Below, piece by piece: positions 8,293 through 24,696 of a DNA stretch of 64,000 nucleotides. Position 1 is the stretch's first letter. Every line of letters begins with the position of its first letter. The stretch is taken from NCBI GenBank assembly GCA_017510335.1, contig JAFWNM010000033.1, positions 86,868 to 150,867 of the forward strand, read 5' to 3'. Origin of the DNA: Paracoccaceae bacterium. GTDB lineage: Bacteria > Pseudomonadota > Alphaproteobacteria > Rhodobacterales > Rhodobacteraceae. Both the position numbers and the translations under genes were made by a program. The notes beneath the pieces were generated by a model. The model saw nothing but the letters and a program-made list of their open reading frames with translations. It made no database searches and was not told the origin of the DNA.

Positions 8293-8439
8293 CTGTTACG
8301 CCAGATGTATGGGCATCGGTCAAATGTGACAGGACATAGCCTTCAAATCGCCTTATTTCTGTCGCCAAACAGCGCCATAGACTGATACATATGACGATAA
8401 GGAAACAATTACGTTCCAATAGTGCGTTCGGTGGCAGGT

Positions 8440-9327
8440 ATGATTATGGTAAATACGCGAAAGCTGGAACAGCTTTTGAAGCGTTCGGATCGCACCAAAA
8501 CGACTGGCAAAGGCCAGCCGGAAACCACACCACTGCGTCGCGGGCTGGCACTTTCGGGCGGTCCTGCCCTGCGCAATGACCACCCCGCCAACACCCCTGA
8601 ACCCCTTGTCGTTCCCCTGAATGACGTCGCATGGGACCAGCTTGACGGCCTTACGCCTGATCCCGACATCGCCAAAGAACACCGCGCATTTAACCAGCAT
8701 GCGCGCACCCCCGCTGTGACAGCCCAGTTTGATGTGCTGCGCACCCAACTTGTGCAGACCTTTCGCAAACGGGGATTGCGTTGTCTGGGTATCACGTCGC
8801 CGCATTCCAATGCGGGCACCAGTTTTGTGGCGGCGGGGCTTCTGGCCAGTTTCGCGCGGCGCACCGATCTGCATGTCGTCGGGCTGGACCTGAATTTCGC
8901 CAATCCCGCGCTACATCGATACTTCGAAGCAGTGCCGGACGGTCCCATCCTTTCCGCGATAGAAGGCAGTATTCCCGTCGAATCGCATCTGCGGCGCGCC
9001 GGTCCCACACTGGCGCTGGGCCTGAACCAACCCGCGCCCGCGCCCGAACAAGGCAGCGCTGCCTTTCCCGCCGAAGATTTCGCAGACATGGTACAGGATA
9101 TTCTTGGCTTTCTCGGGCCGGATTTCGTGATTTGCGACATGCCCCCCCTGCTGGAAGGCGATTGCGCCCTGAACCTGCTGCCGGGAATAGATGCGGTTCT
9201 GGTTGTGTCCAACAGCCACACAACCAGTGCAGAAGACATTGCCGCATGTGAACGTGTTTTGCATGAACAGGCCGCGTTTCTTGGCGTTGTCATGAATCGC
9301 GCAGCCCCTGCACCAAAGGGGCGTTAA
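8440..9327 (+). CDS. CpsD/CapB-family (stand-alone Wzc C-terminal) tyrosine-kinase-like protein with degenerate P-loop
   Basis: FDVLRTQL...CLGITSPHSNAGTS (Walker A position), GLDLNFANP (A' position), FVICDMPPLL (Walker B), DAVLVV, FLGVVMN. Confidence 0.8.
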   Translation: MIMVNTRKLEQLLKRSDRTKTTGKGQPETTPLRRGLALSGGPALRNDHPANTPEPLVVPLNDVAWDQLDGLTPDPDIAKEHRAFNQHARTPAVTAQFDVLRTQLVQTFRKRGLRCLGITSPHSNAGTSFVAAGLLASFARRTDLHVVGLDLNFANPALHRYFEAVPDGPILSAIEGSIPVESHLRRAGPTLALGLNQPAPAPEQGSAAFPAEDFADMVQDILGFLGPDFVICDMPPLLEGDCALNLLPGIDAVLVVSNSHTTSAEDIAACERVLHEQAAFLGVVMNRAAPAPKGR

Positions 9328-18510: not shown

Positions 18511-19494
18511 ATGAACCCCACTGTCCTGACGATCATCGTTAACTACAAAAGCGCCGGAATGTCGCTGCAATCCGCGCAGGCCGCAAACCGTGCCATGACG
18601 GGCATTGACGGCGCAATTACGATTGTCGACAACGACAGCCAGGACGGCTCTTTTGAAACCCTGCGCGACGCCACGCGCGACATGCCACGGGTTCGGGTTA
18701 TCCAGTCGGGGCATAACGGTGGCTTCGGGTTTGGCAACAATGTTGCCATAAATGCGGGCCTGCCGGATGGACGTGCGCCGGATTTCGTCTATCTTCTCAA
18801 CCCCGATGCCTTCCCCGATGCTGATGCAATACAGGTGCTGCGCGACCATATGATCGCGCATCCGCAAACCGGCTTTGCGGGCAGTGCCGTGCGCGGCGAG
18901 GATGGCACCCCCCACGAGGTGGCGTTTCATTTCCCCTCTGCCTGGTCGGAATTCGAGACAGCGGCGAATACCGGCGTCATTACCAGATTGCTGCGCAACT
19001 ACCGCGTTCCCATGGGCTTTCCGCCGGCCACTTGCGCCGTGGACTGGTGTTCTGGTGCCAGTGTGATGTTCCGCCGCAGCATGCTGGACCAGATCGGCCT
19101 GTTTGACGAAACCTTTTTCCTGTATTTTGAAGAAACGGAATTGTGCCATCGTGCCCGCGCTGCAGGCTGGGCGGGCATGTATGTGCCCAAGGCCAGCGTT
19201 ATGCATATCGGTTCGGTTTCGACCGGCATGAGCAACAAGGCGCGCATACCGGGCTATTGGTTCAATTCGCGCGCGCATTATTATCGCAAGACAGGGGGCG
19301 CAGGGTATCTGGCAGTTGCAACGCTGTTTTATGTGCTAGGCGCATCCATCTGGAAAACACGCCGCCTGATTGAACGGAAAGAGGATCGGATTCCGCCATA
19401 TTTTCTCCGTGATCTTGTGGGACATACATTTCAGACCCTGATGCCGGGCACATTGATCAGGGGCAAACGGACGGGGGCGCAGGAAGCGCCCTGA
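18511..19494 (+). CDS. GT2-family glycosyltransferase (WbbL/rhamnosyltransferase-like)
   Basis: Motifs IIVNYKS, VDNDSQDG, NGGFGFGNN, LLNPDA, SGASVMFR, FFLYFEETELCHR and VMHIGSVS. Confidence 0.9.
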   Translation: MNPTVLTIIVNYKSAGMSLQSAQAANRAMTGIDGAITIVDNDSQDGSFETLRDATRDMPRVRVIQSGHNGGFGFGNNVAINAGLPDGRAPDFVYLLNPDAFPDADAIQVLRDHMIAHPQTGFAGSAVRGEDGTPHEVAFHFPSAWSEFETAANTGVITRLLRNYRVPMGFPPATCAVDWCSGASVMFRRSMLDQIGLFDETFFLYFEETELCHRARAAGWAGMYVPKASVMHIGSVSTGMSNKARIPGYWFNSRAHYYRKTGGAGYLAVATLFYVLGASIWKTRRLIERKEDRIPPYFLRDLVGHTFQTLMPGTLIRGKRTGAQEAP

Positions 19495-19507: not shown

Positions 19508-22500
19508 ATGCAGTTTTCAAGTGTTGTGATCGGCGATGAAAGCCTGCTGGCAGAATGCAGCAACCAGCTTTTGGCGCGTGGACACACCATTGCGGCTGTT
19601 GTCACCAACAACCCGCATCTGGCCAGCTGGGCACATGATAACAACCTGCCTGTCGTCAGCGCGGGCCGTGGTCTGGCAGACCGGCTGAATAGGCTGCATT
19701 TCGACTGGATTTTGAACATAGCCGGCCTGCGCGTGCTGCCGCCGGAAGTTCTGGCGCTGCCTGCCCGTGGGGCGGTCAATTTTCATGATGGCCCCTTGCC
19801 ACAGCATGCCGGGTTGAATGCACCCGTCTGGGCCTTGTTGGCAGGCGAACAACAGCACGGCATTTCATGGCATATGATCACCGAAACCATCGATCAGGGC
19901 GATATTCTGGCCCGCGCCGCTTTTGACATCACCGCTGATGACACTGCCTTGACGCTGAACGCAAAATGCTTTGCCGCCGGTGTCGAAAGTTTCGCAAATG
20001 TGCTGGACATGCTGGAACGCGGGCAGGTTTCCGGACAGCCCCAAGACATGACGGGGCGCAATGTGCATCTGCGCCATGACCGCCCCCTTCATGACGGTTT
20101 GCTGGATTTCACGCGCCCCGCCGCAGAACTGGAACGTGTGGTTCGCGCGCTGGATCATGGGCCATATTGGAACCCGCTATGCGCGGCCAAACTGCGGCTT
20201 GGCGCGCAACTTGCCTGTATTGGCGCCGCGCGGGTGGTTGACGGCCAAGGCGCGCCCGGACAGGTTCTTGATGTGGATTCCGACAGTCTGACCGTCATGT
20301 GCGCGGATATGGCGCTGCGCATGTCCGGACTGTTATGTGTGCAAGGGCTGCCCGTCAGCCCGGTGCAACATGTCACAACCGGCGACATGCTGCACATGCC
20401 CCCGAATGGCGTGACCGATGCGATGACGCGCATTGTGGCAGGCGAGCAGCGCTGGCGCGACGCCTTGCGCGCCATGGTGACGGTTCCCCGCCTTGCCGCA
20501 AAATCCGACAGGCGCGAAACACTGGCCCTGGATCTGGCCCTTGCACCGGACGCGCAAACCATTGCGGCATTCGGCGCGGCTGTCGCGCGCCAGTTCGGGT
20601 TGTCCGGCATCGACATGGCATGGCGCAATCGCGCCATTGCACAGGCACAGGCCGCCGCCCCCGACCATATTTCCGGCTGGGTGCCGGTGCAGGTGGACCT
20701 GCATGGCGCAAACCCCATCGCTGATGTTGAAACCCGCCTGAAGCTGGCCCAAACCGCGCCGGGCTTTGCCTGTGACATCAGCGCGCGCGATCCCATGCTT
20801 GGCCTGATCGAGATGCCGCATGTCGCCGTTACACACGGCGCCGAAGCACCGCAGGCGGCACTTGTGCTTGATCTGGACGCGGGCGCGTTGCGCTATGATC
20901 CCGAAATCCTGAGCGCGGCTGGCGCAAGCAAAATCAATACGCTGCTGGCAAACCCGCAGTCGATGGTCCTTGAACCGGACCAGCTTAACGCCACCACGCG
21001 TCCCTATGACCGCATTTGCATTCATCATGCGTTCGAAGCGCAGGTTCACAAAACGCCTGACGCCATTGCGCTGGCGTTTGAAAACCAGACCCTGACATAT
21101 GCGGACCTGAACGCCCGCGCCAACCGCGTGGCGCATGTGCTGAAGGGTATGGGCGTTGTCCCTGACACGCCAGTTGCGTTGTGCGCTGCACGCGGCCCGA
21201 ACCTGCTGATCGGCGCGCTTGGCATCCTGAAGGCGGGCGGGGCCTATGTGCCGCTGGACCCTGCCTACCCTGCGGACCGGCTGGCACATTACCTGAGTGA
21301 TTCCACCGCGCCAGTGGTCGTTACGGAACATGCCCTGCTGGACATGTTGCCCGACCATGATGCGGCGCTTTTGCAACTGGACACCGATGCGCGGCTTGCT
21401 GCGGCACCCGACACCACCCCTGACGGGACCACCACGCCCGACAATCTGGCGTATCTGATCTATACATCCGGGTCCACAGGCACACCCAAAGGGGTGATGG
21501 TGGAACATGGCAATGTCGCCAATTTCTTCGCCGGGATGGATGAGCGCATACGCCATGACCCGCCCGGCGTATGGCTGGCTGTCACATCGTTAAGTTTTGA
21601 CATTTCCGTGCTGGAACTGTTCTGGACATTGGCCCGCGGGTTCAAGGTTGTCCTGATGGGTGATGAGGACCGCACCGCTGTTTCGCGCGCGCCAGTGCGC
21701 GTGTCCGACAAACCCATGGATTTCAGCCTTATGTATTGGGGCAATGATGACGGGCAGGGGCCGCAGAAATACCGCCTGCTGCTGGAAGGCGCGAAATTTG
21801 CCGACACGCACGGGTTTTGCGCGGTCTGGACGCCGGAACGGCATTTTCACGCCTTTGGCGGCCCGTTCCCCAACCCGTCGGTTTCTGGCGCGGCAGTGGC
21901 GGCGGTTACGCAAAACCTGGCGGTGCGTGCAGGGTCTTGCGTGGCACCGCTGCATCATCCAGTGCGCATTGCCGAAGATTGGGCGATGATCGATAATTTG
22001 ACGAACGGGCGCACCGGCATTGGCATCGCTTCGGGCTGGCATCCGGTTGATTTTGTCCTTCGTCCCGAAAACCGCCCGCCCAACAACAAACAGGCGATGT
22101 TCGACATGATCGACACGCTGCGCAAACTATGGCGCGGGGATGCGGTCGAATTTGACAAGGGCGACGGGATGGTTCCCGTTCAGACCCTGCCGCGCCCCGT
22201 ATCGCGCGAATTGCCAATCTGGCTGACCACAGCAGGCAACCCCGACACTTGGCGTGACGCAGGACGGCTTGGCGCGAATGTGCTGACGCACCTGCTGGGC
22301 CAATCCATTGCCGAGGTGGCCGAGAAAATCACCATCTATCACGAAGCCCTGCGCGATGCGGGCCATGACCCCGCCGATTTTACCGTCACGCTGATGTTGC
22401 ACAGCTTCGTTGCGCGCGACCGCGACCATGCCCGCGAAGTGGCGCGCGGGCCGATGAAATCCTACCTGCTGGCGGCGGCGGCGCTGGTGAAACAATACGC

Positions 22501-24019
22501 ATGGGCCTTTCCAGCGTTCAAACGCCCCCAAGGGGCAAAGAACCCCATGGATATTGACCTGTCCGCCCTGTCCCAGGACGAAGTGGACGGCATTCTTGAT
22601 TTCGCCTTCAACCGCTATTTCGACGAATCCGGCCTGTTTGGCACGGTTGAGGATTGTCTGGACCGCGTGGAACAGCTCAAGGCGATTGGCGTGACGGAAA
22701 TTGCCTGCCTTATTGATTACGGCATCAACACCGATCAGGTTCTGGAAGGGCTGTTTCCGCTGGCCGAAGTGGTCAGGCGCGCGAATGCCGGGCTGGATCT
22801 GGCGCAGGATGATTTCTCGATCGCTGCGCAAATTCATCGCCACAAGGTCACGCATCTTCAATGCACCCCGTCCATGGCGCGCATGCTGGTCCTCAATGAC
22901 GACAGCCGCGCAGCACTGGCAAAGGTGGGGACTGTCCTGATCGGCGGTGAAGCCCTGCCCGGGGCCTTGGCGCGCGACATTGCGCAGCTTACCGGCCAGC
23001 CTGTGCATAACATGTATGGTCCCACCGAAACCACCATATGGTCAACAACCCTGACCACCACAGGCACAGACGGTATTGCGGGAATAGGCACGCCCATCGC
23101 GAATACTCAGGTTCATGTCCTCGACGACGCGCTGCGCCCTGTGCCCCCCCATCAGGACGGGGAATTGTTCATTGGCGGCGACGGGGTGACGCGGGGCTAC
23201 TGGAACCGCGCGGCACTGACAGAAGAACGGTTTATCCCCAACCCATTCGGGGCGGGGCGGCTGTATCGCACAGGCGATCTGGTGCAACGGGGGCATGACG
23301 GGTTGCGGTTCATGGGGCGTGTGGATCATCAGGTCAAAATCCGCGGCCACCGCATCGAACTGGGCGAGATTGAAACCGCCCTGGAAGCGCAGCCGGGCAT
23401 TACCGCCGCTGTTGCCATCGCCCGCGAAGACCGGGACGGCGACATAAGGCTGGTCGCCTATTACACCGGCAGCCCGTCGGGGGATGTGCGCGCCGCGCTG
23501 GCACAGCGCCTGCCTGCACATATGTTGCCCGCGCATTTTATCCCGCTGGCAAAAATGCCGCTGACGCCCAACAAGAAGATCGACCGCAAGGCCCTTCCGG
23601 CACCCACCAGCGCGCCACAACACATGCCAGCACCTGTCGCCAGCGCACCTGCAGGCACAGACACCGCCAGCAAGATCGCGGCCATATGGTGCGATGTGCT
23701 GGGCGTGGCGCAAGTGGGCCAGACGGATAATTTCTTCCATCTGGGGGGGCATTCGCTGCTGGCAGTGCAGGCCCACCGCGAAATGCGCACGCTATTGAAC
23801 ATTCCGGGCCTGTCCATCACAGATTTGTTCCGTTTCCCCGTTCTGGGGGAACTTGCCCGTCATCTGGATGGCAAACTGCGCCCGCTTTCGCCTGTGCAAA
23901 CACCACAAATTCACGCCATCGACAGCGCCCCCCTTGCCCCCGACACACCCCCATCAGACAGGGTTCAGGCCATGGCACGCCGCCGCGCCATGCGCGCAGA
24001 AAGGGCCGGACGCGCATGA
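19508..24019 (+). CDS. NRPS-like starter module: formyltransferase - degenerate C lobe - adenylation domain (Gly code) interrupted by luciferase-like monooxygenase - PCP
   Basis: F domain: NFHDGPLP...IDQGDI. A3 YTSGSTGTPKG; A4 FDIS; LLM insert with WTPERHFH and IASGWHPVDF; A5 NMYGPTE; A7 YRTGD; A8 KIRGHRIELGEIE; A10 NKKIDR. PCP: LGGHSL (Ser 23753). Confidence 0.95.
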   Translation: MQFSSVVIGDESLLAECSNQLLARGHTIAAVVTNNPHLASWAHDNNLPVVSAGRGLADRLNRLHFDWILNIAGLRVLPPEVLALPARGAVNFHDGPLPQHAGLNAPVWALLAGEQQHGISWHMITETIDQGDILARAAFDITADDTALTLNAKCFAAGVESFANVLDMLERGQVSGQPQDMTGRNVHLRHDRPLHDGLLDFTRPAAELERVVRALDHGPYWNPLCAAKLRLGAQLACIGAARVVDGQGAPGQVLDVDSDSLTVMCADMALRMSGLLCVQGLPVSPVQHVTTGDMLHMPPNGVTDAMTRIVAGEQRWRDALRAMVTVPRLAAKSDRRETLALDLALAPDAQTIAAFGAAVARQFGLSGIDMAWRNRAIAQAQAAAPDHISGWVPVQVDLHGANPIADVETRLKLAQTAPGFACDISARDPMLGLIEMPHVAVTHGAEAPQAALVLDLDAGALRYDPEILSAAGASKINTLLANPQSMVLEPDQLNATTRPYDRICIHHAFEAQVHKTPDAIALAFENQTLTYADLNARANRVAHVLKGMGVVPDTPVALCAARGPNLLIGALGILKAGGAYVPLDPAYPADRLAHYLSDSTAPVVVTEHALLDMLPDHDAALLQLDTDARLAAAPDTTPDGTTTPDNLAYLIYTSGSTGTPKGVMVEHGNVANFFAGMDERIRHDPPGVWLAVTSLSFDISVLELFWTLARGFKVVLMGDEDRTAVSRAPVRVSDKPMDFSLMYWGNDDGQGPQKYRLLLEGAKFADTHGFCAVWTPERHFHAFGGPFPNPSVSGAAVAAVTQNLAVRAGSCVAPLHHPVRIAEDWAMIDNLTNGRTGIGIASGWHPVDFVLRPENRPPNNKQAMFDMIDTLRKLWRGDAVEFDKGDGMVPVQTLPRPVSRELPIWLTTAGNPDTWRDAGRLGANVLTHLLGQSIAEVAEKITIYHEALRDAGHDPADFTVTLMLHSFVARDRDHAREVARGPMKSYLLAAAALVKQYAWAFPAFKRPQGAKNPMDIDLSALSQDEVDGILDFAFNRYFDESGLFGTVEDCLDRVEQLKAIGVTEIACLIDYGINTDQVLEGLFPLAEVVRRANAGLDLAQDDFSIAAQIHRHKVTHLQCTPSMARMLVLNDDSRAALAKVGTVLIGGEALPGALARDIAQLTGQPVHNMYGPTETTIWSTTLTTTGTDGIAGIGTPIANTQVHVLDDALRPVPPHQDGELFIGGDGVTRGYWNRAALTEERFIPNPFGAGRLYRTGDLVQRGHDGLRFMGRVDHQVKIRGHRIELGEIETALEAQPGITAAVAIAREDRDGDIRLVAYYTGSPSGDVRAALAQRLPAHMLPAHFIPLAKMPLTPNKKIDRKALPAPTSAPQHMPAPVASAPAGTDTASKIAAIWCDVLGVAQVGQTDNFFHLGGHSLLAVQAHREMRTLLNIPGLSITDLFRFPVLGELARHLDGKLRPLSPVQTPQIHAIDSAPLAPDTPPSDRVQAMARRRAMRAERAGRA

Positions 24020-24696
24020 TTCAACAACGCTTTTCACTGGTGCAATACGCGCGCCCCTTGTTCAGCGACAGGGTTGCCATGGCATGGGCCGACCCGAAAG
24101 CCCCCATGCCCCGCCTTATGGGCGACGAGGTTCTGGCCATTGAACAGGTCGCTGCCGCGCGCGCGCGCGAATTCGCCGCCGGACGCGCTGCCGCGCGCAG
24201 CGCCATGGAACAACTGGGCCATACGCCGCGCCCCGTCCTGCAAGGGGATGACCGCGCGCCAATCTGGCCTTCGGGCATTGTCGGGTCCATCACGCACACG
24301 GGCCAGGACGCGCTGGCCGTTGTCACGGATGACCCCGCCATTATGGCGTTGGGGCTGGACATGGAACCCGCCACACCGCTGGAACCAAGCCTGTGGCCAG
24401 TGGTTTGCACACAAAACGACATGCTTTGGCTGGCTGGCCTTGGCCCTACGCAGCGCGGACATTTCGCCAAGCTGCTGTTTTCCGCGAAAGAAGCGGTCTA
24501 TAAGGCACAGTATCAGGTCAGCCGCTGCCTGATCGATTTTCATGCGCTTGATCTGATACCTGATCTGGCTTCAGGCCGCTTTACCGGGACATTGCGGCAA
24601 GACGTTCCGCATTTTGCATCTGGAACCCGATTCGAAGGACAGTTTTCGATTCTCGCCAGTTCCATTGTCACAGCGGTGGAAATATACCGTCGCTGA
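24016..24696 (+). CDS. 4'-phosphopantetheinyl transferase (EntD-type)
   Basis: Motifs APIWPSGIVGSITH, LGLDME and FSAKEAVYKA; ATGA overlap with the NRPS gene. Confidence 0.93.
   Translation: MIQQRFSLVQYARPLFSDRVAMAWADPKAPMPRLMGDEVLAIEQVAAARAREFAAGRAAARSAMEQLGHTPRPVLQGDDRAPIWPSGIVGSITHTGQDALAVVTDDPAIMALGLDMEPATPLEPSLWPVVCTQNDMLWLAGLGPTQRGHFAKLLFSAKEAVYKAQYQVSRCLIDFHALDLIPDLASGRFTGTLRQDVPHFASGTRFEGQFSILASSIVTAVEIYRR

What the first reader, a model, noticed from the sequence alone, without database searches (positions are those of the whole stretch)
23750..24019. Non-colinear assembly line, and a concrete product prediction
The NRPS gene lies downstream of the PKS but has starter architecture (F-A-PCP, no TE). 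It ends in a basic helix (RVQAMARRRAMRAERAGRA), while the PKS starts with a short acidic leader (MTDLPDHFSEND) and ends in the TE, consistent with NRPS-to-PKS docking. One malonyl extension with KR and DH would give an (E)-4-formamidobut-2-enoyl unit. Calculated masses: free acid C5H7NO3, 129.043 Da; +111.032 Da as an acyl substituent; +127.027 if hydroxylated by the LLM; +129.043 if left undehydrated. Iterative use of the PKS would lengthen it.
Basis: inference. Interest (0 to 1): 0.6.

Follow-up and report, generated by a model that had tools for sequence, protein, structure and literature searches.

The report
Arginine-rich tail pairing NRPS with PKS
A glycine-loading starter enzyme ends in a short, strongly conserved arginine-rich helix that occurs almost only in relatives sitting next to one particular polyketide synthase, so it probably links the two enzymes; the cluster is a known orphan of marine bacteria and its product is still unknown.

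Summary
The NRPS (19508-24019) is F-A(LLM-interrupted)-PCP with no C or TE domain. It lies downstream of a KS-AT-KR-DH-ACP-TE PKS (12160-18504) and ends in a predicted basic helix (23957-24016).

The tail is a real, selected element. Its core, M-[AS]-[RK]-R-R-A-[ML]-R-A-x-R, is nearly invariant in 120 orthologs and 40 genomes, while the Pro/Ala linker before it varies freely and third codon positions drift.

Across 52 loci from several phyla with at least 3 kb on both flanks, 42 of 43 basic-tailed homologs sit beside this same PKS. None of 9 homologs with other endings does; those have acidic or other tails with a condensation-domain partner, or a fused TE.

Outside Rhodobacterales the usual order is NRPS then PKS, so "non-colinear" is only a lineage-specific gene permutation.

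The proposed receptor, the acidic PKS leader, is not supported. It is 6-24 residues long, unconserved, and no more acidic than other parts of the PKS.

The mass arithmetic is correct, but the product is untested. Iteration by the PKS and the MtaG-type alpha-hydroxylation precedent are both unresolved.

This is the Roseobacter NRPS/PKS cluster known since 2007, with no product reported in the 2015 and 2023 papers I read. The scan's index shows no such finding on other DNA.

The parts
19508..24019 (+). NRPS starter protein, 1503 aa: formyltransferase, adenylation domain interrupted by a luciferase-like monooxygenase, PCP, flexible linker, basic tail
   Evidence: Pfam and NCBIfam (TIGR04020 473 bits, TIGR01733). 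Catalytic motifs intact. Specificity code DILQLGMIWK.
19508..20323 (+). Formyltransferase (F) domain
   Evidence: Formyl_trans_N residues 54-164 and Formyl_trans_C residues 196-272. The Asn-x-His and Asp motifs at residues 91-98 and 129-133 are invariant in 40 diverse homologs.
21722..22771 (+). Luciferase-like monooxygenase inserted in the A domain between A4 and A5
   Evidence: TIGR04020 matches residues 739-1088. A4 lies at 696-700 and A5 at 1168-1174.
23672..23866 (+). PCP domain; phosphopantetheine Ser1416 is encoded at 23753-23755
   Evidence: PP-binding residues 1389-1453. GGHSL motif. AlphaFold2 pLDDT above 90.
23879..23956 (+). Pro/Ala-rich linker, variable in length and sequence
   Evidence: Predicted disordered, pLDDT 52-67. 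Not conserved among orthologs; the distance from the PCP Ser to the C-terminus varies from 78 to 104 residues.
23957..24016 (+). C-terminal arginine-rich helix (DRVQAMARRRAMRAERAGRA), the proposed PKS-partner element
   Evidence: Nearly invariant core. Third codon positions vary freely at 1.5-1.8 bits. Predicted helix. Co-occurs with the PKS in 42 of 43 loci. No Pfam match.
12160..18504 (+). Type I PKS, 2114 aa: KS-AT-psiKR/KR-DH-ACP-TE
   Evidence: Pfam. Motifs intact: KS Cys185/His320/His360, AT Ser631, KR Tyr1313, DH His1399 and Asp1568, ACP Ser1778, TE Ser1927 and His2083 (residue numbers read from the motif ranges). Start at ATG 12160 by comparison with orthologs.
12160..12195 (+). 12-residue PKS leader MTDLPDHFSEND
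   Evidence: Unconserved in 41 Rhodobacterales and 8 outgroup loci. The KS Pfam profile starts at residue 11.
18511..19494 (+). GT2 glycosyltransferase between the PKS and the NRPS
   Evidence: Pfam. Present in 39 of 40 Rhodobacterales loci. Mostly absent between the pair outside that order.
24016..24696 (+). Sfp-type phosphopantetheinyl transferase; its ATG overlaps the NRPS stop codon (ATGA)
   Evidence: 4PPT_N and ACPS. Sequence.
10636..12120 (+). Wzy_C / O-antigen-ligase-like membrane protein directly upstream of the PKS
   Evidence: Weak Pfam hit below the gathering cut-off. A roughly 500-aa ORF occupies this position in nearly all of the 40 loci.

Best explanation
This is a two-protein hybrid assembly line. 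The NRPS loads glycine on its PCP, the F domain N-formylates it, and the embedded monooxygenase probably hydroxylates its alpha carbon. The unit is then passed to the KS of the PKS. The PKS extends it at least once, with a malonyl extender assumed, ketoreduction and dehydration. The TE releases or transfers the product. The PCP hangs on a flexible Pro/Ala linker that ends in a conserved arginine-rich helix. This helix most likely acts as a short docking element that holds the NRPS on its PKS partner while the PCP swings between its own domains and the KS. The contact site on the PKS is unknown and is probably not the short N-terminal leader. Shown here: the domain content, intact catalytic motifs, conservation of the tail, and its co-occurrence with the PKS. 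Inferred: glycine specificity, formylation, hydroxylation, transfer to the KS, the docking role, and the number of extensions.
For: Architecture and intact motifs are. The glycine-type code DILQ[LM]GMIWK is conserved in orthologs. The starter role is supported by homologs fused as F-A(LLM)-PCP-C-A-PCP. For pairing, all 40 Rhodobacterales loci hold PKS and NRPS together. Outside that order the same PKS (39-54% identity, full length) is adjacent, usually 15-250 nt downstream on the same strand. Arrangement counts are 27 colinear, 23 PKS-upstream and 7 opposite-strand. For the tail, the core is nearly invariant while the linker varies. Invariant Arg codons have free third positions, which points to protein-level selection. 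A helix is predicted after a disordered linker. Among loci with at least 3 kb on both flanks, 42 of 43 basic-tailed proteins have the PKS next door and 0 of 9 with other endings do. Acidic tails (L071) and other non-basic tails (L160; the EKxAxILK type in L216 and L218) are followed by a condensation domain 16-145 nt downstream, and five proteins carry a fused TE. Non-basic tails form at least three separate clades inside the basic-tailed tree.
Against: No physical interaction was tested and no multimer model could be run. The tail and the PKS are inherited together, so their co-occurrence is partly shared ancestry. One basic-tailed locus (L194) has no PKS within 8 kb. No NRPS-PKS fusion protein was found, though that search was crowded by giant NRPSs. 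The PKS has no recognisable N-terminal docking domain. The helix is predicted with only moderate confidence. Glycine specificity rests on the code read from motif anchors, not on an assay.
Confidence: 0.55

Rival explanations
1. The basic helix docks on the acidic 12-residue PKS leader. A single malonyl extension with KR and DH gives an (E)-4-formamidobut-2-enoyl unit (free acid 129.043 Da).
For: The leader is net acidic in most loci, with a mean of -2.2 in 41 Rhodobacterales loci and a negative charge in all 8 outgroup loci. The tail carries +3 to +7. One module with KR, DH and TE fits one extension. The masses recompute correctly (my own arithmetic).
Against: The leader is 6-24 residues long and has no conserved sequence. 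Without its last three residues its mean charge is -0.5. Its charge is at the median 25th percentile of same-length windows of the same PKS. The KS profile starts at residue 11. The model treats the LLM as optional, although the LLM is as conserved as the rest of the protein. The number of extensions is unknown.
Confidence: 0.1
2. The tail has another job, such as binding the membrane, the glycan machinery or the PPTase, or regulating its own domains. It tracks the PKS only because both belong to one inherited gene pair.
For: Polysaccharide genes lie next to the pair in several lineages. The PPTase gene overlaps the NRPS stop codon. Co-occurrence is not phylogenetically independent. L194 has the tail without a nearby PKS.
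Against: The GT2 and Wzy-like genes are not adjacent in most outgroup loci that keep the tail. The helix is arginine-rich rather than amphipathic-hydrophobic. Homologs that switched to a condensation-domain partner or a fused TE also replaced the tail.
Confidence: 0.25
3. The embedded monooxygenase hydroxylates the alpha carbon of N-formylglycyl-S-PCP, as proposed for MtaG/MelG, and the carbinolamide collapses. The PKS would then receive a glyoxylyl starter, or an alpha-hydroxy unit, rather than formylglycine, and all predicted masses would shift.
For: The arrangement matches MtaG/MelG: an LLM inside a glycine-type A domain (PMC11411415 read). The LLM is highly conserved across phyla. Homologs with their own TE exist (F-A(LLM)-PCP-TE).
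Against: No chemistry was tested. Losing the formamide would make the conserved F domain only a transient activator. Fused forms pass the unit on to a condensation domain, which fits either fate.
Confidence: 0.2
4. The PKS works iteratively and builds a longer polyenoyl chain on the starter.
For: It is a single module with KR and DH but no ER. The KR lies before the DH, an order I know from iterative PUFA and enediyne synthases (and my own knowledge).
Against: The KS-AT is closest to modular PKS structures such as CurL and DEBS, not to iterative ones among solved structures. There is only one ACP and no chain-length factor. Nothing here measures chain length.
Confidence: 0.3

Closest known systems
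Conserved Roseobacter-clade NRPS/PKS/glycosyltransferase/PPTase cluster (Martens et al., as cited in PMC4337385)
   Same: It has the same four genes, in a Rhodobacterales genome whose closest relative is Roseinatronobacter sp. at 90% identity. In my sample the NRPS is present in 190 of 401 genomes and 69 of 138 genera.
   Different: Nothing differs at the cluster level, so this is a member. The papers I read from 2015 and 2023 still give no product. The tail, its link to the PKS partner and the spread beyond Rhodobacterales were not mentioned in what I read.
LgrA-type formylating initiation module (F-A-PCP) of linear gramicidin synthetase
   Same: It has an N-terminal formyltransferase with the Asn-His-Asp motifs, then A and PCP, with no condensation domain, and acts as chain starter.
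   Different: It is a stand-alone protein that loads glycine, not valine. Its A domain is interrupted by a monooxygenase. Its downstream partner is a PKS on a separate protein rather than a fused condensation domain.
MtaG/MelG modules of myxothiazol and melithiazol synthetases (C-A-MOX-A-T-TE)
   Same: A luciferase-like monooxygenase sits inside a glycine-type adenylation domain. The proposed chemistry there is alpha-hydroxylation of N-acyl-glycyl-S-PCP (PMC11411415).
   Different: Those are terminating modules with C and TE domains that use the reaction to release a terminal amide. Here the module is a starter with an F domain and hands its product on.
Docking and communication elements of NRPS and PKS subunits (PKS class 1 and 2 docking domains, TubC-type beta-hairpin docking with a C-terminal short motif, COM domains)
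   Same: It is a short terminal element behind a flexible linker on the upstream carrier protein. It is specific to the type of downstream partner, and it is replaced when the partner changes.
   Different: It matches no docking family in Pfam. The partner PKS has no N-terminal docking domain. The element is strongly basic, whereas the NRPS-partnered homologs carry the acidic type.

Membership tests
Roseobacter-clade orphan NRPS/PKS cluster | NRPS, PKS, glycosyltransferase and PPTase genes together in a Rhodobacterales genome | tested here: met
   Pfam. Synteny in 39 of 40 loci. Description in PMC4337385.
Roseobacter-clade orphan NRPS/PKS cluster | Wide but patchy distribution within the order | tested here: met
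   190 of 401 genomes and 69 of 138 genera. PMC4337385 reports 28 of 57 genomes.
Formylating NRPS initiation module (F-A-PCP) | N-terminal formyltransferase domain with the catalytic Asn, His and Asp | tested here: met
   Formyl_trans_N/C. Motifs at residues 91-98 and 129-133, invariant in 40 homologs.
Formylating NRPS initiation module (F-A-PCP) | No condensation domain before the A domain, and the product is handed downstream | tested here: met
   No Condensation hit. Fused homologs F-A(LLM)-PCP-C-A-PCP exist.
Formylating NRPS initiation module (F-A-PCP) | Formyl transfer to the PCP-bound amino acid | not testable with these tools
   This needs an enzyme assay.
Interrupted A domain with monooxygenase (MtaG/MelG type) | MupA/Atu3671-family LLM inserted between A4 and A5 | tested here: met
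   TIGR04020 at residues 739-1088, between A4 (696-700) and A5 (1168-1174).
Interrupted A domain with monooxygenase (MtaG/MelG type) | Glycine specificity code | tested here: met
   DILQLGMIWK, read from motif anchors. The match to the glycine code DILQLGLIWK is from my own knowledge.
Interrupted A domain with monooxygenase (MtaG/MelG type) | Terminating module with C and TE domains that releases an amide | tested here: not met
   No C or TE domain in this protein.
Known PKS/NRPS docking domain families | Sequence match to a described docking family | tested here: not met
   No Pfam family hit the last 59 residues at E up to 1.
Known PKS/NRPS docking domain families | Matching N-terminal docking domain on the downstream subunit | tested here: not met
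   The leader is 6-24 residues and unconserved. The KS profile starts at residue 11.
Known PKS/NRPS docking domain families | Physical binding between the two termini | not testable with these tools
   No multimer prediction or binding assay was available.
Iterative PUFA/enediyne-type PKS | KR placed before DH | tested here: met
   KR at residues 1160-1353 and DH at 1395-1658.
Iterative PUFA/enediyne-type PKS | Tandem ACPs, a chain-length factor or integrated PPTase, and a KS-AT related to those synthases | tested here: not met
   There is one ACP and no such domains. The nearest solved KS-AT structures are modular PKSs. PfaA scores 325 bits against 977 bits for a type I PKS model.

The most novel reading that the evidence does not exclude
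The C-terminal arginine-rich helix is an undescribed kind of NRPS-to-PKS docking motif. It would bind the body of the PKS directly, with no N-terminal docking domain on the partner. It would belong to a two-gene formylglycine/PKS module spread across several bacterial phyla, often next to polysaccharide genes, that makes a still unknown conserved acyl unit.
Probability: 0.4. Interest if true: 0.6.

Novelty: new variant of a known kind. Interest (0 to 1): 0.45.

Why it matters
The cluster sits in about half of the Rhodobacterales genomes I sampled and has had no known product since 2007. The same NRPS-PKS pair also turns up in Beta- and Gammaproteobacteria, Acidobacteriota and a Candidatus Leptofilum MAG.

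A partner-specific tail gives a simple, testable handle on how the two enzymes find each other. If it binds a PKS that has no docking domain of its own, it would add a new kind of interface for engineering hybrid assembly lines.

The comparison also corrects the product prediction. The gene order carries no mechanistic meaning, the leader is not a credible receptor, and the embedded monooxygenase must be included in any mass list used for metabolomics.

Tried and rejected
- The search of protein representatives with the A(LLM)-PCP-tail part returned only giant multi-module NRPSs and gave nothing useful.
The gene neighbourhoods of the tail classes seen therefore came from the search for related loci instead.
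- A search for longer, fused F...KS proteins found none. The list was crowded by large NRPSs, so this is weak evidence of absence.
- I recalled a link to the Rhodobacter capsulatus capsule genes rcc01081-01086. The paper never mentions PKS or NRPS, so I dropped the lead.
- I tested whether conservation on the helix is one-sided. It is not significant (permutation p = 0.15).
- I considered nucleotide-level conservation, for example for translation of the overlapping PPTase gene. Third codon positions vary freely, so I rejected it.
- My first neighbourhood script wrongly scored L161 as lacking a PKS because the genes overlap. Pfam showed the PKS directly downstream.
- A literature search for the domain order KS-AT-KR-DH-ACP-TE found one paper, which I did not open.
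- I searched for papers combining formyltransferase, LLM, adenylation and PKS and found none.
Full report
**What is there**

The + strand carries a tight run of genes.
- A BY-kinase-like gene (8422-9327) and a chain-length-determinant-like gene (9330-10616).
- A Wzy_C-like membrane protein (10636-12120).
- A type I PKS (12160-18504).
- A GT2 glycosyltransferase (18511-19494).
- An NRPS (19508-24019).
- An Sfp-type PPTase (24016-24696), whose ATG overlaps the NRPS stop codon.

The NRPS has a formyltransferase, an adenylation domain split by a MupA/Atu3671-family luciferase-like monooxygenase (residues 739-1088, between A4 and A5), and a PCP. It has no condensation or thioesterase domain.

The PKS is KS-AT-psiKR/KR-DH-ACP-TE, and every catalytic motif I checked is intact. 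Its real start is the ATG at 12160, not the TTG at 12130, as orthologs show.

The finding's coordinates cover the PCP from its serine to the stop codon. The last 20 residues are DRVQAMARRRAMRAERAGRA.

**Is the tail real?**

In 120 database orthologs (55-99% identity) and in 40 loci fetched from different genera, the core M-[AS]-[RK]-R-R-A-[ML]-R-A-x-R is nearly invariant. It always sits 13-17 residues from the C-terminus. The stretch between the PCP and the tail is Pro/Ala-rich and varies in length and sequence.

The invariant arginine codons have third-position entropies of 1.5-1.6 bits and fixed first and second positions. Selection therefore acts on the protein, not on the DNA upstream of the PPTase start.

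AlphaFold2 on the 41-sequence alignment gives a confident PCP, a disordered linker (residues 1458-1483) and a helix over residues 1484-1502 at pLDDT about 67-71. No Pfam family matches the tail.

**Does it go with the PKS?**

The NRPS ortholog is in 190 of 401 sampled Rhodobacterales genomes and 69 of 138 genera. All 40 fetched loci hold PKS and NRPS together, and 39 have the order Wzy-like, PKS, GT2, NRPS, PPTase.

Outside the order the protein is rare in Alphaproteobacteria: 2 of about 398 sampled genomes. Those cases are informative.
- In L072 the NRPS lies directly upstream of a PKS of the same architecture, 22 nt apart, and keeps a basic tail.
- In L071 the homolog is followed 16 nt later by a condensation-type NRPS. 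It ends in an acidic tail, and its partner begins with a basic stretch.

A database search from L071 found 86 stand-alone F-A(LLM)-PCP proteins, those with source names coming from Myxococcota, Planctomycetota, Chloroflexota, Acidobacteriota and Betaproteobacteria. Of these, 64 have basic tails of the form DRAxxRRxA[LM]xxRRxxR, 9 have acidic tails and 13 have other endings.

I then fetched 160 loci from genome and metagenome collections and scored their neighbours by tblastn.
- Among F-containing loci with at least 3 kb on both sides, 42 of 43 basic-tailed proteins have a homolog of this PKS next to them. L161 is counted after correction by Pfam, and L194 is the one exception.
- None of 9 proteins with other endings has the PKS.
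- Those 9 are five F-A(LLM)-PCP-TE fusions, L071 with its condensation-domain partner, and three with neither partner nearby. Three further loci with shorter flanks or a truncated F domain (L160, L216, L218) also have a condensation domain 44-145 nt downstream.

A tree built without the tail places the non-basic classes as at least three separate clades within basic-tailed diversity, so the tail was replaced more than once.

The caveat is that tail and PKS are co-inherited, so these counts are not independent events.

**Gene order**

Among 57 basic-tail/PKS pairs, 27 have the PKS downstream on the same strand, 23 have it upstream (the Rhodobacterales type) and 7 are on opposite strands. The colinear loci include Agarilytica, Sneathiella, Comamonadaceae, Novilysobacter, Sphingobium, Candidatus Leptofilum and Terricaulis, with gaps of 15-250 nt. 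The "non-colinear" order in the window is therefore a lineage-specific permutation and says nothing about mechanism.

The starter role is further supported by natural fusions F-A(LLM)-PCP-C-A-PCP. No fusion to a KS was found, but that search was crowded by giant NRPSs.

**The acidic leader**

The leader is 8-24 residues in 41 Rhodobacterales loci and 6-19 residues in 8 outgroup loci, with no conserved sequence. Its mean charge is -2.2, but only -0.5 once the last three residues, which abut the KS, are left out. Compared with same-length windows of its own PKS, its charge lies at the median 25th percentile. The KS profile already aligns from residue 11.

The leader cannot be a docking domain in the usual sense. 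A loose electrostatic contribution is not excluded. If the tail docks on the PKS, the site is more likely on the folded body.

**Product**

The specificity code read from motif anchors is DILQLGMIWK. It is conserved as DILQ[LM]GMIWK in orthologs and one residue away from the glycine code I know. The formyltransferase catalytic motifs are invariant in 40 diverse homologs.

They assume one extension, a malonyl extender and an optional LLM.
- The AT resembles FabD and MdcH, but its specificity motif (IAAHS) is neither of the two textbook forms.
- The LLM is as conserved as the rest of the protein.
- The only described relative inside a glycine A domain, in MtaG/MelG, is proposed to hydroxylate the alpha carbon, after which the unit splits into an amide and a 2-oxo acid (PMC11411415). 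A hydroxylated or even glyoxylyl starter is therefore as likely as plain formylglycine.
- The KR lies before the DH, an order I know from iterative PUFA and enediyne synthases. However, the KS-AT is closest to modular PKSs, so iteration remains open.

**What is known**

This is the conserved Roseobacter NRPS/PKS/glycosyltransferase/PPTase cluster. PMC4337385 (2015) reports it in 28 of 57 genomes with an uncharacterised product. A 2023 study of Roseibaca still lists it as an unknown hybrid cluster. I found no paper on the tail, on the partner-specific tail classes or on the wider distribution. The library does not cover subscription journals.

The earlier follow-up on this window (e1-5232074) reached the same view of the NRPS. 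The scan's index shows no such finding on other DNA.

**Verdict**

The pairing of NRPS and PKS is well supported, and the basic tail is a partner-specific element. Its docking role is likely but untested. The acidic-leader receptor is not supported. The product prediction is one of several equally open options.

Noticed in passing
L073:12399-15867, L074:14368-18951, L072:16970-18061: Outside Rhodobacterales the NRPS/PKS pair again lies next to polysaccharide genes. These are a Wza-like exporter with a Wzz/BY-kinase-like gene, a GT2 with a priming sugar transferase, and a sugar epimerase. This fits the idea that the product is linked to a glycan.
   Followed up: partly
L156, L157, L158, L159, L209 (metagenome contigs): Some homologs carry their own thioesterase-like end (F-A(LLM)-PCP plus about 280 more residues) and have no PKS or condensation partner nearby. 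In those the starter module may release its own small product.
   Followed up: no
L062 (G294:C1): This is the only one of 40 Rhodobacterales loci in which the PKS is followed directly by the NRPS, with no GT2 gene between them.
   Followed up: no
P0070 (Pararhodobacter zhoushanensis protein) and G055, G024 matches: P0070 ends in a different, Cys/Gly-rich sequence where the tail should be, which looks like a frameshift. Two genomes have one in-frame TGA inside the NRPS match. These may be sequencing errors or decaying copies.
   Followed up: no
window 12130-12160: The mechanical ORF call starts the PKS at TTG 12130. Orthologs and the KS profile point to ATG 12160, ten codons later.
   Followed up: yes
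L163-L165, L183 (metagenome contigs): One group of homologs ends just after the PCP (about ...FLRAADNEGARA) and has neither the PKS nor a condensation domain in the flanks held. Their partner is unknown.
   Followed up: no
L194:7926-12638: This is a basic-tailed F-A(LLM)-PCP with no PKS within 8 kb on either side. Its neighbours include a 3-keto-disaccharide-hydrolase-like protein and large ORFs with no Pfam match.
   Followed up: partly
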